This document shows, one piece after another, positions 44,652-50,235 of a DNA stretch of 64,000 bases. Numbering within the stretch: the first letter of the stretch is position 1; every line of letters begins with the position of its first letter. Under the pieces are notes generated by a model. It saw nothing but the letters and a program-made list of their open reading frames with translations. It searched no databases and had not been told where the DNA came from. A program made the translations under genes and the position numbers. This DNA comes from Promethearchaeia archaeon (GTDB lineage: Archaea > Asgardarchaeota > Lokiarchaeia > Sigyniarchaeales > SOKP01), in the NCBI GenBank assembly GCA_029856145.1, contig JAHQWK010000025.1, forward strand, positions 30,582 to 94,581. The letters run 5' to 3'.

Positions 44652-46583
44652 GTGAAAAACATGAGTAAGACTAAAGAAATACCTATTCCTGATAAGATTT
44701 CGGGTTTTACGCAAGTTAGACTTGATGTAGATCTAACAGATGGAAAGATTAGTAAATCTACATTATCTAATGAGTTTTGCCGGGACTGGATTGGAGGTTA
44801 CGGATTCGCGAGTAAAATTCTATGGGATGAATGCCCAACGGGAGTTGATCCCCTAAGCCCAGAAAACGTGTTTGTATATGCACATGGCCCATTTCCAGCT
44901 ACTATATTACCAACAAGTTCTAAATATGGAGTATTTGCTAAATCTCCATTAACTGGTATGTTTGGCATGGCAATATCCTCTGGATCTGTTGGAGCTCAAG
45001 CTCGCCGCGCTGGTATCAATATGATTGTAATCAAAGGTAAAGCACCAGAACTTTCATACTTGGTTGTGGATGATGATGATTATTATGTCGTTCCATGCCC
45101 AGAACTTGCGGGAAAAGGTTGTTGGGAGACAGAAGAACACTTGAGAGAAGAATTTCAAGATCAGAGATTGGCAGTTATGGCAATTGGTCCTGCTGGAGAA
45201 CGAATGAGCAAAATGGCGTGCATAACCAATGATCGCAATAGACAAGCAGGAAGAACTGGGATGGGCGCAGTTATGGGGTCTAAAAATCTTAAAGCTGTAT
45301 GCTTTAGAGGTACTAAAGGCGTGAAAGTAGCATCCCCAGTTGAGTTTTATAAATTAGCTAAAAAATTAATTAAAGTTGCTAATGGCCCTGCTACAGCTAA
45401 ATATCGAGATTTAGGAACTCCTGCAGGCTTAACAAGCTATAACAAACTGGGAATGATGCCTACATTTAATCACCGCGAGGGAACTTGGGAAAAAATTGAT
45501 GATGGAACTTTTACGGGAGATACACTTAATAATGACTGGGTGGTAAAAAAGGTTGCATGTTCTCAATGTTCAATTGCGTGTGATCATATTGCTAAAGTAC
45601 CAAAGACACATCCTCATTGGCCTAACTTATATGCTAGTATAGATGTAGAGCTTTGTTATTCATTTGGAACAAATATGGGTACTTCTGATTGGCCAACGGT
45701 ATTTAAATGTGTTCAATTATGCGATGATTTAGGTATTGACGCAATCTCAGGCGGGGTAACGGCCTCAATGGCGGCAGAATTGTTTGATCTAGGGCTTATA
45801 ACTAAAAAGGATTTAGGCTATGAATTACCATTCGGTTCAACGGTCAATTTAGTGAAATTCACAGAAGAAATGTGTCTTGGAAAAGGATTTGCAGGTGAAA
45901 TCTTTGGAGATGGTTGTAAACAAGCAGGAATTCGATTAGAAGAAAAAGGAATAAAAAACGCAGGCTATTACGGAATGCACATAAAAGGCTTAGAAATGCC
46001 CGCTTTTGACCTTCATGGTATGACGTCCTTTGCGGTTGGAGAAAGTGTTTCAATTAGAGGGGCATGCCATTTAAGAAATGGAGCCTATGGACTCGATGCT
46101 AAAGGAAAGTTCGACAGGTTCGGATACGATAAAGGTCTCGAACGTGGTAATTCAATAGTGGCAGTTGAAGATGTTTATGGCATAATTGATTCTTATATAA
46201 TATGTAAATTCACTCGTGGAATTTACGAAAATGATGCCGAAATGGCAAAAGTGTTTGAGCTTGTAACTGGTATTCCACACACAGAAAAATCATTGCTGAC
46301 AAGAGGAGCTGCAATAGTTACGCTTTCTAAATGTTTCAACATTCGAGAAGGATGGATAAGAGATCATGATCACCCTCCTGAGAGGTTCTTTAAGGAATCA
46401 CACACAAAAGGACCAGCTAAAGGAGTTACTTTAAAGGAAGATGGATATCAAACGTTATTAAGTGGTTATTATGAAGCTAGAGGTTGGGACACCAAAACAG
46501 GAATTCCAACTGATGAAACATTAAAGTCTCTTGGATTAGATTTTGTAATTGGTAAATTACAGCCTGCTGGAGGTAAGAAATAA
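44652..46583 (+). CDS. Tungsten aldehyde:ferredoxin oxidoreductase family protein (start possibly ATG 44661)
   Basis: AGRTGMGAVMGSKNLKAV, CSQCSIAC, GIDAIS, KGLEMPAFD, RGACHL, YYEARGWD. Confidence 0.93.
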   Translation: MKNMSKTKEIPIPDKISGFTQVRLDVDLTDGKISKSTLSNEFCRDWIGGYGFASKILWDECPTGVDPLSPENVFVYAHGPFPATILPTSSKYGVFAKSPLTGMFGMAISSGSVGAQARRAGINMIVIKGKAPELSYLVVDDDDYYVVPCPELAGKGCWETEEHLREEFQDQRLAVMAIGPAGERMSKMACITNDRNRQAGRTGMGAVMGSKNLKAVCFRGTKGVKVASPVEFYKLAKKLIKVANGPATAKYRDLGTPAGLTSYNKLGMMPTFNHREGTWEKIDDGTFTGDTLNNDWVVKKVACSQCSIACDHIAKVPKTHPHWPNLYASIDVELCYSFGTNMGTSDWPTVFKCVQLCDDLGIDAISGGVTASMAAELFDLGLITKKDLGYELPFGSTVNLVKFTEEMCLGKGFAGEIFGDGCKQAGIRLEEKGIKNAGYYGMHIKGLEMPAFDLHGMTSFAVGESVSIRGACHLRNGAYGLDAKGKFDRFGYDKGLERGNSIVAVEDVYGIIDSYIICKFTRGIYENDAEMAKVFELVTGIPHTEKSLLTRGAAIVTLSKCFNIREGWIRDHDHPPERFFKESHTKGPAKGVTLKEDGYQTLLSGYYEARGWDTKTGIPTDETLKSLGLDFVIGKLQPAGGKK

Positions 46584-47138
46584 ATGTCAAAAAGCATTAA
46601 AAAGAGAGGCGGAGTAGTTCACCAATTTATAATTGTTGACCCAAATTTATGCACGGGCTGTGAGACATGTGAATCTATTTGTTCTTTCGTCCATGACGGC
46701 GAATTCAACCCAATAAACACACGGATCCACAGAGTACGTATTGAACCAATTTTAAATGTCGCATTAGCATGTCAAAAATGTGATGATGCTCCATGTGTAC
46801 GCAGTTGTCCTGAAAAAGCTTTAGAGCAGGATAAAGAAACTGGCTCGATTATTGTCGATGATGACAAATGTAATGGTTGCGCCTTCTGTATTCGTGCATG
46901 CGATTTTGGAGTTCTCAGTTTACATATCCAGACTCAGAAAGCTCTCATCTGCGATTTATGCGAGACTATGAAGGAAGATTATATTGATCCTGAGAGAGGA
47001 GAAAGATATCCAGCTTGCATTGATGTCTGTCCAAAAGAAGCTATCTCATTAAAAGATGTAGAACAAATTGGTGAAGAAAAACGGATTGATGCGGTAAAAC
47101 GCCTTTTTGGCGAAATCCTAAAAGAAACTGAAGCTTAA
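46584..47138 (+). CDS. 4Fe-4S dicluster (DmsB/HydN-like) electron-transfer subunit of AOR
   Basis: Four Cys clusters; start abuts the AOR stop (taaatg). Confidence 0.9.
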   Translation: MSKSIKKRGGVVHQFIIVDPNLCTGCETCESICSFVHDGEFNPINTRIHRVRIEPILNVALACQKCDDAPCVRSCPEKALEQDKETGSIIVDDDKCNGCAFCIRACDFGVLSLHIQTQKALICDLCETMKEDYIDPERGERYPACIDVCPKEAISLKDVEQIGEEKRIDAVKRLFGEILKETEA

Positions 47139-47155
47139 ATCTAAATTTTTATTAT

Positions 47156-47350
47156 TTATATTTTTTTCTTAATCTTAATGTTTATTAAAATAAGGTAAAT
47201 TTGGGTTATTTTATTTATATCCCTATTTACAAGTTTCCCGATAATTGCGTCAATAACAATTAAGCCAGCACTAATGAATGGTACGATAATTCCTAATTGA
47301 ACGCCATATATTACCCAAAAAAGCCAATAATATTTTTTAATTTCACTCAA
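47156..47350 (-). CDS. Small hypothetical membrane protein (uncertain)
   Basis: 64-aa ORF with a hydrophobic N-terminal half; may be a remnant. Confidence 0.35.
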   Translation of the reverse strand: MSEIKKYYWLFWVIYGVQLGIIVPFISAGLIVIDAIIGKLVNRDINKITQIYLILINIKIKKKI

Positions 47351-47599
47351 AATGATTTATCTTCATTTTTTTACTAATGGTTTTCAAATCATCTATTAAT
47401 ATTTCATTTTCGCTTTAAAATTTATAAAAAAAATTCAGATCTTAATTAAAATGATATGAAATTTCATAATAATTGAGTTTTAATAATATAGACTATTTAC
47501 AATCACATAATACATTTCTCAGAAATGTTCTAAGAACTGAGAGCAAGTATGGTTAATCTTTAATAATTAGGAGGTTAAGATTAACAAAGGTGAATAAGA

Positions 47600-49576
47600 T
47601 TGTCTGAAAAACAGACCAAAGAAAATAATAACGAAGATCAACCAAGAATAGGTGTGTTTGTGTGTCACTGAGGTATCAATATTGCGGGGATCTTAGACAT
47701 TCCAAGGATAGTCGAAGAAATAGGTAAATTAGATAATGTTTGGGCTTATCCATATCTATCATTATGTACTGAAGGCGGATCTACAGAAATCAAGGAGAAG
47801 CATGAAGAATTTAAATTTGATAGGGTTTTAGTTGCCGCATGTACTCCAAAAACTCATCAACCTGTGTTCCATGCAATATTATCAGAGATGGGATTACCAC
47901 CAAGATATTTGGAGTTTGTAAACATTCGAGAGCATTGTTCTTTTGTACACCAAGCTCCAGAAGTACGTGAAAAAGCTAATCTAAAAGCTATTGAATTAAT
48001 CAAAGCAGGGATCGCCAGATCGAAATTATTAGAGGATGTTCCTACTAAAACTGTTCCGGTAGAACCAGCTGCTTTAGTGGTAGGTGGAGGAATTGCAGGA
48101 TTATCTGCTGCCATCGATTTAGGAGATGGAGGATATAAAGTATATTTAGTTGAAAAGAATACGACTATTGGTGGACGCATGTCTCAACTTGATAGAACCT
48201 TCCCTACAGATGATTGTTCTATATGAATCTTGGGACCAAAAATGCTTGAAGCAAATCGCCATCCAAATATAGAAATATTGTCTTACAGTGAAGTCTCGGA
48301 AATTGATGGTTTTATTGGCAACTTTGAAGTTAAAGTTAAAAGAAAAGCTCGATTTGTAGATGAAACGAAATGTACCGGATGCGGTACTTGTACTGATGTA
48401 TGTCCTGTATATACCAGCAATTATTTTGATGAACATTTATCTGCAAGAAAAGTTATTGATATTGCTTTTGCTCAAGCAGTACCAGCAATATCACAACTTG
48501 AAAGGGATGTATGCATTGAATGTTTTGCATGTGTTGACGCATGTGACCAATCAGCTATAGATTTCAGTCAGCAGGATGAAATTGTAGAACTTAAAGTTGG
48601 TACGATAATAGTCGCTACTGGTTGGGACCTTTACCAAGGTGATGACTATGGATATGGTATTTATGACAATGTAATCAACCAAATACAACTAGAGAGAATA
48701 ATAGCACCAAATGGGCCAACCTATGGACACTTAAAGCGACCATCTGATGGCAAACGTCCAACCAAGATATTGTTCATTAACTGCGTTGGATCTAGAGATG
48801 TAAATAAGAATGCTCATTGCAGTGTTATCTGTTGTAATCTTTCTCTTAAAAATTCTAAATTAATTAAAGCAGAGTACCCTGATTCTCAAATCGTTTGTTG
48901 TTATATAGATATGCGATGTGCTGGGAAAGATTATGAAGAATATTACAGAAGAACTCGAGATGCTGGAATAATATTTGTCAAGGGATTGGTTGGTAAGATC
49001 GAAGAAGATCCTTTAACTAAGAACCTTAAAGCACAGTTTGAACCAGTTGGAACTAATTCTGTTGTTACAATGGAAGCTCATATGGTTGTATTATCATCTG
49101 CTTCACTTCCATCTCAAGGTACAGTAGAAATTGCTAAAGTACTGAAAATGGAAAAAAGTCCTGATGGTTTCTTAAAAGAATATCATCCTCGGCTTGATCC
49201 AATTAGTACAAAAGTACCTGGTATATATATCTGTGGCTCTGCTCAAGGTCAGAAGGAGATTGATAAAACAGTAAGTCAAGCTCGAGGAGCTGCATCAGTA
49301 GCAAGTATTCCAATGGGTAAAGGAGAATATACTATGGAATTAATTCGAGCGACTCCATCAGATGAACGTTGCGCTAAATGTTATAAGTGTATTGAAGCTT
49401 GCCCATATACTGCGATTTCAGTAAATGAGAATGGTAACCTTGTTGTTGACTTAATAAATTGTCGAGGTTGCGGAACATGTGCGTCTTTATGTCCATCTAA
49501 AGCTATTGAATTAACTTACTTTAGAGATGATCAATATATGGCGTTAGTAGATGAATTATTACCAATAGTGGAGTAA
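47600..49576 (+). CDS. hdrA: Heterodisulfide reductase subunit A, selenoprotein with 2 Sec (658 aa)
   Basis: One frame from TTG 47600 (after AGGTGA) through TGA 47669-47671 (RIGVFVCH-U-GINIAG) and TGA 48224-48226 (TFPTDDCSI-U-ILGPKM) to TAA 49576. Both TGAs sit at conserved HdrA Cys positions. The track ORFs 47864..48226 and 48230..49576 are fragments of this gene. Confidence 0.93.
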
Positions 49577-49589
49577 AGAGGTAATGAAA

Positions 49590-50048
49590 ATGGCAGAAGA
49601 TAATGATATTAAAATTATAGTTTATGCTTGCTGGAAATGAGGGTATGGTAGTGCCGACATGGCAGGTACTATTCGAGCACAATATCCGGATTCCATCAGA
49701 AATGTTTTAGTACCTTGTGCTGGACGCGTTGGACCTGATTTAGTAATGCGAGCATTTGGAAGAGGCGCAGATGGTGTAGTCATTAACGCTTGATACCCTG
49801 GAGAATGTGATTATGAAACAGGAATTTATCACGCATATCGACAAGTCGAATATATTAAAGAAATTCTAAAAGTCGTTGGATTAAGTCCTGATAGAATTAA
49901 AATAATCTATTGTACTGCAGCTGAAGGTCAGAAATTTCAAATTGAAGCTATAGAAATCGATAAAACAATCCGTAAATTAGGACCAAGTCCTCTACGTACA
50001 AAAGGCACACCTAAAAAAGGAAAAGCTAAAGCAAAAGCTAAGGCTTAA
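49590..50048 (+). CDS. mvhD: MvhD/VhuD [2Fe-2S] hydrogenase/Hdr adaptor, selenoprotein with 2 Sec (152 aa); absent from the ORF track
   Basis: MAEDNDIKIIVYACWK-U-GYGSADMAG...VPCAGRV...GADGVVINA-U-YPGECDY...AAEG...KLGPSPL; TGA at 49638-49640 and 49791-49793 match the CxxC and GCHxGxC Cys of MvhD; SD GAGGT 7 nt upstream. Confidence 0.92.
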
Positions 50049-50056
50049 TAAATTTA

Positions 50057-50129
50057 ATGTGTTTACTGATGAGACTGAGTTAAAAAAACGAGAACTCAGT
50101 TGAAGAAATGGTTGCACCATATAACACAT
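50057..50129 (+). promoter_or_regulatory. Eukaryote-like SECIS element (3' UTR)
   Basis: Helix I AUGUGUU(50057-63)/AACACAU(50123-29); core AUGA(50069-72)...GA(50102-03); helix II GACUGAGUU/AACUCAGUU; apical loop starting with A7; begins 8 nt after the mvhD stop. Confidence 0.88.
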
Positions 50130-50235
50130 AAAAATGGTTTGATAAAATTTAATAAAAATATTTAAAATTTATTCCAAAAATTTGGGAAATTTAAGAAAAA
50201 AGAATAGTATAGTATATAGATAGAGTTGGAATTGC

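What the first reader, a model, noticed from the sequence alone, without database searches (positions are those of the whole stretch)
47600..50129. Hidden selenoprotein operon: four UGA-Sec codons in two cistrons apparently served by one distal eukaryote-like SECIS
Seen directly: HdrA has UGA at codons 24 (CH-U-G) and 209 (CSI-U), and MvhD has UGA at codons 17 (CWK-U) and 68 (U-YPGEC), all at Fe-S-ligating Cys positions. Only 13 nt separate hdrA from mvhD, so hdrA has no room for its own 3' SECIS; the only AUGA/GA element follows mvhD. Both genes end in UAA. Established: Lokiarchaeota use eukaryote-like SECIS elements, and HdrA/VhuD are archaeal selenoproteins. Inference: one SECIS recodes across a cistron boundary over about 2.4 kb on a polycistronic mRNA, combining prokaryotic operon structure with eukaryotic-style long-range recoding. 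Standard annotation would miss mvhD and split hdrA. The N-terminal CHUG site is additional to the CSIU site I know from methanococcal HdrA.
Basis: partly seen in the sequence, partly recalled or inferred. Interest (0 to 1): 0.85.

Follow-up and report, generated by a model that had tools for sequence, protein, structure and literature searches.

The report
Known Asgard hdrA-mvhD shared SECIS
Two adjacent redox-enzyme genes of an uncultured Loki-type Asgard archaeon each carry two UGA "stop" codons that are almost certainly read as selenocysteine under one RNA signal behind the second gene; this is real, but the arrangement and this reading of it were published in 2016 and 2024.

Summary
hdrA (47600-49576) has in-frame TGA at codons 24 and 209. 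mvhD (49590-50048) has TGA at codons 17 and 68. The genes are 13 nt apart and both end in TAA. One AUGA/GA hairpin lies at 50057-50129.

All four TGAs are kept in 35-36 orthologous loci from Promethearchaeota (Lokiarchaeota) MAGs. They align with Cys, or with the selenocysteine of solved Methanococcus HdrA/VhuD. The genome has tRNA-Sec, SepSecS, EFSec, a PSTK-like gene and two Sec-SelD genes, and TGA is otherwise an ordinary stop.

The hairpin fits the published "lokiSECIS" exactly: AUGA, 9-bp stem, 11-nt A-rich loop, GA. I found no second conserved SECIS, no Methanococcus-type element and no local constraint after any UGA.

It is the same as Mariotti et al. 2016 (PMC4989117) and Huang et al. 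2024 (PMC11227280), and it is still untested by experiment. This scan reached the same verdict on other genomes.

The only feature I did not find in those papers' main text is a third arm of the SECIS. It is supported by covariation and makes the element a three-way junction.

The parts
47600..49576 (+). hdrA, 658 codons, TTG start preceded by AGGTGA, TAA stop; HdrA-type flavoprotein with N-terminal Fe-S domain, FAD domain and two ferredoxin domains
   Evidence: NF040770 E 1e-219, NF041778 E 2e-181, both below their curated cut-offs; PDB 9sfi_A E 6.5e-206, 5odc_A E 6.5e-192
47669..47671 (+). UGA codon 24 of hdrA (VCH-U-G), N-terminal Fe-S domain; Cys in Cys-type homologues
   Evidence: TGA in 35/35 orthologs; Cys in paralogs C13 and C26 and in 9sfi_A
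48224..48226 (+). UGA codon 209 of hdrA (DDCSI-U), the canonical HdrA Sec position (Sec197 of M. maripaludis)
   Evidence: 35/35 orthologs; aligned to the non-standard residue X in solved chain 9sfi_A; Cys197 role from PMC9012536 and PMC13518236
49577..49589 (+). 13-nt intercistronic spacer with Shine-Dalgarno-like AGAGGT; too short for a SECIS
   Evidence: spacers of 7-14 nt in all 36 orthologous loci
49590..50048 (+). mvhD/vhuD (FlpD family), 152 codons, TAA stop followed by a second TAA
   Evidence: (PF02662 E 2e-38, above cut-off)
49638..49640 (+). UGA codon 17 of mvhD (CWK-U-GYG)
   Evidence: 36/36 orthologs; aligned to X (Sec) in M. maripaludis VhuD chain 9sfi_K and to Cys in MvhD 5odc_D
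49791..49793 (+). UGA codon 68 of mvhD (INA-U-YPGEC)
   Evidence: 36/36 orthologs; aligned to the second X of 9sfi_K
50057..50129 (+). Whole SECIS fold. Helix I is 50057-50063 paired with 50123-50129. The third arm is the hairpin 50108-50112 / 50116-50120.
   Evidence: fold, z -3.6; 36 orthologs, 99.2% of cells paired; model R2; 28 diverse elements, all three helices covary
50069..50103 (+). lokiSECIS core. AUGA is 50069-50072. The 9-bp helix II is 50073-50081 paired with 50093-50101. The 11-nt apical loop AAAAAAACGAG is 50082-50092. GA is 50102-50103. The AUGA starts 21 nt after the mvhD stop and lies 2400, 1845, 431 and 278 nt after the four UGAs.
   Evidence: feature list from PMC4989117
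50236..51375 (+). Context only: FrhB/FdhB-like Fe-S protein gene, conserved about 100 nt after the SECIS on the same strand. A conserved AATTTGGGAAATTTAAG block lies in the spacer, which may be its own promoter.

Best explanation
This is a bicistronic hdrA-mvhD selenoprotein unit of a Promethearchaeota (Lokiarchaeota) archaeon. Both genes are transcribed on one mRNA that ends shortly after a single eukaryote-like SECIS (lokiSECIS) placed 21 nt behind mvhD. While ribosomes translate either cistron, that 3' element, presumably together with the archaeal EFSec carrying Sec-tRNA(Sec) and a still unknown SECIS-binding factor, redefines the four in-frame UGAs as selenocysteine. The UGAs are two in hdrA, 2.4 and 1.8 kb upstream of the SECIS, and two in mvhD. 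The UAA stops of both genes are unaffected.

Shown here: the four UGAs, their conservation, the Sec machinery, the SECIS structure, and the lack of any other conserved recoding element.

Inferred: co-transcription, action across the cistron boundary, and actual Sec insertion.
For: Four in-frame TGAs sit at Cys/Sec-aligned positions. They are conserved in 35/35 (hdrA) and 36/36 (mvhD) orthologous loci of Promethearchaeota MAGs.

hdrA stops are always TAA or TAG (36/36), as expected if a UGA there would be recoded.

Sec machinery is present: tRNA-Sec (62 bits against a 47-bit cut-off), SepSecS 477 bits, EFSec-like 231 bits, PSTK-like 146 bits, and two SelD genes each with one TGA.

TGA is a normal stop in 237 of 1669 long ORFs.

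The SECIS matches the published lokiSECIS feature for feature and is conserved with compensatory changes.

The other three Sec-type hdrA-mvhD pairs in this genome have the same layout, with a SECIS only behind mvhD.

No other conserved AUGA/GA hairpin was found. No GAA_A-type archaeal SECIS was found. Synonymous sites are not constrained in the 15 codons after any UGA.
Against: There is no transcript, selenium-labelling or mass-spectrometry data for any Asgard archaeon in what I could read. A lokiarchaeal vhuU SECIS did not work in Methanococcus maripaludis (PMC11881835), so function is untested. No SBP2 homologue is known in archaea. The PSTK-like and EFSec-like genes score below NCBIfam cut-offs built for other lineages. 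The genome is a MAG with 5.4% estimated contamination.
Confidence: 0.85

Rival explanations
1. hdrA has its own recoding signal that I missed. This could be a local hairpin after each UGA (bacterial-type SECIS or eukaryote-type SRE), a 5'-UTR element as in M. jannaschii fdhA, or an element inside mvhD. In that case the downstream SECIS serves mvhD only.
For: A weak AUGA...AA hairpin spans the hdrA-mvhD junction at 49551-49594. Pattern scans cannot find unknown element types.
Against: In orthologs the junction 'AUGA' becomes ACGA, UCAA or UGUA, and its 3' arm changes without compensation. No other AUGA/GA hairpin recurs at one position in more than 8 of 37 loci. No GAA_A element was found. Synonymous-site entropy after the UGAs is ordinary, at percentiles 0.27-0.84. 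Covariance models R1/R2 hit only 50053-50134 in this region.
Confidence: 0.05
2. The UGAs are read through without selenium, for example by Cys or Trp insertion from near-cognate tRNAs, or only when selenium is scarce. The SECIS-like hairpin would then be mainly an mRNA 3'-end or stability element.
For: No direct evidence of Sec in any Asgard protein. The Loki SECIS is inactive in M. maripaludis. The element sits where a terminator or stabilising hairpin would sit.
Against: A complete Sec pathway is kept in the genome. The AUGA/GA core and A-rich loop are invariant while the stems covary. The same element follows every UGA-containing gene found and no Cys-type hdrA paralog. The UGA positions are those occupied by Sec in solved M. 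maripaludis HdrA/VhuD.
Confidence: 0.04
3. The genes are pseudogenes, or the in-frame stops are assembly errors.
For: Standard gene callers would split hdrA and truncate mvhD.
Against: The same four TGAs occur in 35-36 independent MAG assemblies with otherwise intact, 71-93% identical proteins. There are no frameshifts or other stops.
Confidence: 0.01
4. hdrA and mvhD are translated from separate mRNAs. The SECIS would then reach hdrA UGAs only in a minority read-through transcript or in trans.
For: Co-transcription was not shown here or in the papers read.
Against: The 13-nt spacer (7-14 nt in orthologs, and overlapping genes in one published pair) leaves no room for a terminator plus promoter. 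The gene order is invariant.
Confidence: 0.05

Closest known systems
Lokiarchaeota HdrA-VhuD tandem selenoprotein genes sharing one lokiSECIS (Mariotti et al. 2016, PMC4989117; Huang et al. 2024, PMC11227280, 'hdrA-frhD' with type I eSECIS-like structure)
   Same: Same phylum. Same gene order and very short spacer. Multi-Sec HdrA including the canonical position, and two-Sec VhuD. [quoted passage not shown] The HdrA stop is never UGA. The span is about 2 kb.
   Different: Nothing of substance; this is another genomic instance. The third arm and closing helix of the SECIS that I see are not mentioned in the main text of either paper. I could not read their supplements.
Methanococcales/Methanopyrus HdrA (Sec197) and VhuD (two Sec), with solved structures 9sfi and 5odc
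   Same: Orthologous proteins. The Sec positions U209, U17 and U68 coincide with the non-standard residues in 9sfi_A and 9sfi_K. The hdrA-vhuD synteny is the same.
   Different: Methanococcal genes use GAA_A-type archaeal SECIS elements and HdrA has one Sec. Here there is an extra N-terminal Sec, a eukaryote-like SECIS, and none for hdrA alone.
Eukaryotic SECIS (type I) in 3' UTRs, e.g. SELENOP with many UGAs
   Same: AUGA/GA quartet core, an A-rich apical loop, 3' location, and action over kilobase distances on several UGAs.
   Different: Helix II is 9 bp here, shorter than I recall for eukaryotic SECIS elements (recalled from memory, not tested). No Rfam SECIS family matches. No SBP2 is known in archaea. 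The mRNA is polycistronic. An extra hairpin lies on the 3' side of the internal loop.

Membership tests
lokiSECIS / Asgard type I eSECIS-like element | AUGA immediately 5' of the main stem and GA (or AA) immediately 3' of it | tested here: met
   AUGA 50069-50072 and GA 50102-50103. The ATGA columns are invariant in all 36 aligned sequences; the 3' dinucleotide is GA in 35 and AA in 1 (L036).
lokiSECIS / Asgard type I eSECIS-like element | 9-bp stem and 11-nt apical loop whose first nucleotides are adenines | tested here: met
   Stem GACUGAGUU/AACUCAGUU and loop AAAAAAACGAG. Orthologs have loops of 11-13 nt. 8 of 9 stem pairs show double changes across 28 elements.
lokiSECIS / Asgard type I eSECIS-like element | Lies close to the 3' end of a selenoprotein CDS; for HdrA-VhuD pairs, only behind VhuD | tested here: met
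   It starts 21 nt after the mvhD stop. No second conserved element was found. The same holds for the three other Sec pairs in the genome.
lokiSECIS / Asgard type I eSECIS-like element | Directs Sec insertion at upstream UGA | not testable with these tools
   No experiment exists for any Asgard SECIS. A Loki vhuU SECIS was inactive in M. maripaludis (PMC11881835).
Sec-containing HdrA | HdrA domain architecture with UGA at the canonical position (Sec197 of M. maripaludis, Cys197 of the crystal structure) | tested here: met
   Alignment to 9sfi_A over residues 14-654, with U209 opposite X. NCBIfam HdrA models hit at E 1e-168 to 1e-219 but below their curated cut-offs, which were set for methanogen or fused forms.
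Sec-containing VhuD/MvhD (Pfam FlpD, PF02662) | FlpD domain above the gathering score, with two UGAs at the two VhuD Sec positions | tested here: met
   PF02662 scores 131.6 bits against a 22.3-bit cut-off. U17 and U68 lie opposite both X residues of 9sfi_K.
Archaeal/eukaryotic Sec-decoding trait | tRNA-Sec, PSTK, SepSecS, EFSec and SelD present in the genome | tested here: met
   tRNA-Sec at C8:12915-13007. SepSecS 477 bits. Two SelD genes above cut-off, each with one TGA. EFSec-like 472 aa, 231 bits against a 242-bit cut-off. PSTK-like 146 bits against a 290-bit cut-off. The last two are best hits but below cut-offs trained on other lineages.
Methanococcus-type archaeal SECIS (GAA_A bulge) | Two stems separated by a GAA / A asymmetric bulge, in the 3' or 5' UTR | tested here: not met
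   No such element in window 46584-53000, and none recurring in at least 4 of 37 loci.

The most novel reading that the evidence does not exclude
The lokiSECIS is not a simple eukaryote-like stem-loop but a three-way junction. A short third hairpin (50108-50120 here) sits on the 3' strand between the GA of the kink-turn core and the closing helix I. This resembles what I recall of a 'k-junction'; that resemblance is from memory and was not tested.

The third arm covaries across paralogous and unrelated selenoprotein genes and is present in every same-genus genome searched. It could be the docking site of the unknown archaeal SECIS-binding factor, and part of what lets one element act over 2.4 kb and across a cistron boundary.

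Separately, U24 and U209 may both ligate the same N-terminal [4Fe-4S] cluster. A paralog with four Sec (contig C30) might then have an all-selenolate-ligated cluster.
Probability: 0.35. Interest if true: 0.5.

Novelty: already known. Interest (0 to 1): 0.2.

Why it matters
One SECIS serving several UGAs in two cistrons of a prokaryotic operon is a striking intermediate between archaeal and eukaryotic selenocysteine decoding. It remains experimentally untested. It has nevertheless been in the literature since 2016 and was catalogued across 227 Asgard genomes in 2024.

This locus adds a clean, well-conserved example and an annotation fix: hdrA would otherwise be split and mvhD missed. The small addition is evidence that the SECIS has a conserved third arm and closing helix, which anyone designing a reporter or binding assay should include in the construct.

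Tried and rejected
- Rfam, at gathering and at E up to 10, gave no SECIS family hit and only chance matches.
- The SECIS-like hairpin across the hdrA/mvhD junction (49551-49594) was rejected. Its AUGA and 3' arm are not conserved and do not covary.
- Two weak AUGA hairpins inside hdrA occur in only 8 of 37 loci.
- A scan for a Methanococcus-type GAA_A SECIS found nothing.
- There is no synonymous-site constraint after any UGA.
- Global TGA reassignment was rejected, because TGA ends 14% of long ORFs.
- An in-frame HdrA-MvhD fusion by read-through was rejected, because mvhD is in the +1 frame.
- Model R1, built from orthologs only, was too specific to see paralogous SECIS elements.
- MAFFT could not align paralogous SECIS elements, so I used a model-guided alignment instead. 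That alignment leans towards the model's structure.
- Supplements of PMC4989117 are not held, and those of PMC11227280 had no matching strings. I therefore could not confirm that the N-terminal Sec site is one of the five published positions, or that the third arm is absent from the supplementary figures.
- I could not read PDB coordinates to check which N-terminal cysteines ligate the cluster.
Full report
**What is in the sequence.** Reading TGA as U, window 47600-49576 is one 658-codon frame with TGA at codons 24 (47669-47671) and 209 (48224-48226), ending in TAA. Thirteen bases later, behind an AGAGGT Shine-Dalgarno-like motif, a 152-codon frame runs from ATG 49590 to TAA 50046-50048. It has TGA at codons 17 (49638) and 68 (49791). 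An extra in-frame ATG at 49584 is not conserved in relatives. The second gene is in the +1 frame relative to the first, so these are two cistrons and not a fusion.

The first protein is an HdrA. NCBIfam HdrA models hit at E 1e-168 to 1e-219, below cut-offs set for methanogen or fused forms. PDB 9sfi_A matches at E 6.5e-206 and 5odc_A at E 6.5e-192. The second protein is MvhD/VhuD: Pfam FlpD scores 131.6 bits, above its gathering score.

**Are the TGAs selenocysteine codons?** U209 aligns with the non-standard residue (X) of the solved Methanococcus maripaludis HdrA, which is the canonical Sec197. U24 aligns with Cys in that structure. Both MvhD TGAs align with the two X residues of M. maripaludis VhuD (9sfi_K) and with Cys in MvhD 5odc_D.

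A scan of species-representative genomes returned 36 related loci, all from Promethearchaeota/Asgard MAGs, with 59-93% MvhD identity. Both mvhD TGAs are kept in 36/36 loci. Both hdrA TGAs are kept in 35/35 full-length genes, and six of those also have TGA at the position of Cys56.

In the window's own 3.55-Mb genome (97% complete, 5.4% contamination), TGA ends 237 of 1669 long ORFs, so it is not reassigned.

The genome encodes the following Sec machinery:
- tRNA-Sec (ARAGORN; Rfam RF01852 at 62 bits against 47), next to SepSecS at 477 bits.
- An EFSec-like GTPase of 472 aa whose best family is selB.
- A PSTK-like gene.
- Two tandem SelD genes, each with one TGA.

Pseudogenes and assembly errors are excluded by this conservation.

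**The SECIS.** Twenty-one bases after the mvhD stop lies AUGA (50069-50072). It is followed by a perfect 9-bp helix (50073-50081 with 50093-50101), an 11-nt loop AAAAAAACGAG, and GA (50102-50103). The MFE fold adds a closing helix (50057-50063 with 50123-50129) and a small hairpin (50108-50120). The fold has z = -3.6, and 0 of 200 shuffles fold as well.

This is, feature for feature, the 'lokiSECIS' of Mariotti et al. 2016: AUGA, 9-bp stem, 11-nt apical loop beginning with adenines, GA, close to the CDS end. Across 36 orthologs, 99.2% of cells pair and four pairs show compensatory change. The strict pattern occurs only three times in the whole genome, each time behind a UGA-containing ORF.

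**Is it the only element?**
- A relaxed AUGA/GA hairpin scan of 47300-50300 finds one other candidate, across the hdrA/mvhD junction (49551-49594). In orthologs its AUGA becomes ACGA, UCAA or UGUA, and its 3' arm (the SD region) changes without compensation, so I reject it.
- No other position carries such a hairpin in more than 8 of 37 loci.
- No Methanococcus-type GAA_A element exists in the region or recurs in orthologs.
- Synonymous-site entropy in the 15 codons after each UGA is ordinary (percentiles 0.27-0.84), which argues against bacterial-type or SRE-type local structures.
- Covariance models built from the element hit only 50053-50134 in the region.

The three other Sec-type hdrA-mvhD pairs of this genome (two on C2, one on C30 with four Sec in HdrA) show the same layout. 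Two Cys-type hdrA paralogs (C13, C26) have none of the SECIS hits found in the genome-wide pattern scan or the R2 search next to them. All 36 orthologous hdrA genes end in TAA or TAG, never TGA.

**Mechanism.** The best reading is a bicistronic mRNA whose single 3' SECIS recodes all four UGAs, which lie 2400, 1845, 431 and 278 nt upstream. The structure, the conservation and the absence of alternatives are shown here. Co-transcription, cross-cistron action and Sec insertion are inferred.

A conserved FrhB/FdhB-like gene follows about 100 nt after the SECIS in 34 orthologous loci. The spacer holds a short T-run and a conserved AATTTGGGAAATTTAAG block. I therefore think that this gene has its own promoter and that the SECIS marks the 3' end of the hdrA-mvhD transcript. 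This is inference.

**Comparison with what is known.** Mariotti et al. [quoted passage not shown] They describe support for up to six UGAs over about 2 kb, HdrA with up to four Sec at five positions, and HdrA always ending in UAA or UAG.

Huang et al. 2024 extend this to hundreds of Asgard MAGs, and a 2026 review repeats it. No experiment has tested it. A Loki vhuU SECIS was inactive in M. maripaludis.

Earlier follow-ups in this scan reached the same verdict on other genomes.

- The N-terminal CH-U-G site is new relative to Methanococcus, but multi-Sec Loki HdrA is already known.
- 'All at Fe-S-ligating positions' is documented only for U209. That residue equals Cys197, described as a ligand of the partner protomer's N-terminal [4Fe-4S] cluster (PMC9012536). 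A 2026 cryo-EM study instead sees Sec197 in a Cys-Sec bridge between that cluster and FAD (PMC13518236). Mariotti et al., writing before that crystal structure, said the Sec sites were not cluster ligands.

The Sec positions seen in this lineage (24, 56, 81-equivalent, 209) would fit three N-domain ligands plus Cys197. I could not check coordinates.

**What may be new.** The small hairpin between the GA and helix I is not an accident of this locus.
- MFE folds of independent SECIS elements (other hdrA-mvhD paralogs, vhuU, a UU-selenoprotein gene, a paralog from another MAG) give the same three-way junction in 5 of 7 cases. A sixth has a 3-bp arm. Flank-shuffled controls give it in 7-16% of cases.
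- A model built from diverse elements finds 5-11 full-length matches in each of 16 same-genus genomes and none in 10 genomes of other genera.
- On 28 such elements, 94.9% of cells pair, against 27-51% for slid controls. All four pairs of the third arm and all seven of helix I show changes on both sides.

Two caveats apply. The alignment is fitted to the model, and many rows are orthologs of a few classes, so cells overcount events.

Neither paper's main text mentions a third arm, and their supplements were not readable. The resemblance to a k-junction is recalled from memory and was not tested.

**Verdict.** Interest is low for this finding as stated, with a modest side result on SECIS architecture.

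Noticed in passing
window 50108-50120 and 50057-50063/50123-50129: The lokiSECIS has a third hairpin arm and a closing helix, which make it a three-way junction. All three helices covary across 28 elements from the genus. The two SECIS papers' main texts do not mention this arm.
   Followed up: yes
own genome C30:8200-10722 (L062, L057): A paralogous hdrA has four in-frame TGAs, at the positions equivalent to residues 24, 56, 81 and 209 here. If the three N-domain positions and Cys197 are the cluster ligands, its N-terminal [4Fe-4S] cluster would be ligated only by selenocysteines. Its mvhD ends in a UGA that is part of the SECIS AUGA.
   Followed up: partly
own genome C2:105939-106012 (L056): The SECIS behind the hdrA-mvhD pair at C2:108467-106001 has two U-U mismatches in helix II and an AUAAA loop start. 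It scores only 42.9 bits with model R2. It may be a weakened element although the pair keeps four TGAs.
   Followed up: no
own genome C9:170437-170987 (L060:838-1314 plus SECIS): A 158-aa ORF has two adjacent TGAs (HAD-UU-AD), no Pfam family, and a perfect lokiSECIS 9 nt after its stop. It lies downstream of a membrane-protein gene. It looks like a member of the tandem-Sec family that other follow-ups of this scan report in arsenic operons and find missing from published lists.
   Followed up: partly
own genome C26:76622-76699: A further full-length SECIS match (41.9 bits, AUGA UUCUUGUUA ... GA with third arm). I did not identify a selenoprotein ORF upstream of it.
   Followed up: no
own genome C9:622849-625200: Two tandem SelD genes, each with one in-frame TGA. 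Duplicated Sec-SelD is reported as common in Loki/Thor genomes by Huang et al. 2024.
   Followed up: no
window 50130-50235: The spacer between the SECIS and the conserved FrhB/FdhB-like gene holds a short T-run just after the SECIS. It also holds a conserved AATTTGGGAAATTTAAG block about 45 nt before the ATG. These are a likely terminator region and an independent promoter.
   Followed up: partly
window 44652-47138: An aldehyde:ferredoxin oxidoreductase gene (AFOR_N/AFOR_C) and a polyferredoxin gene lie directly upstream on the same strand, separated from hdrA by a 460-nt AT-rich spacer.
   Followed up: no
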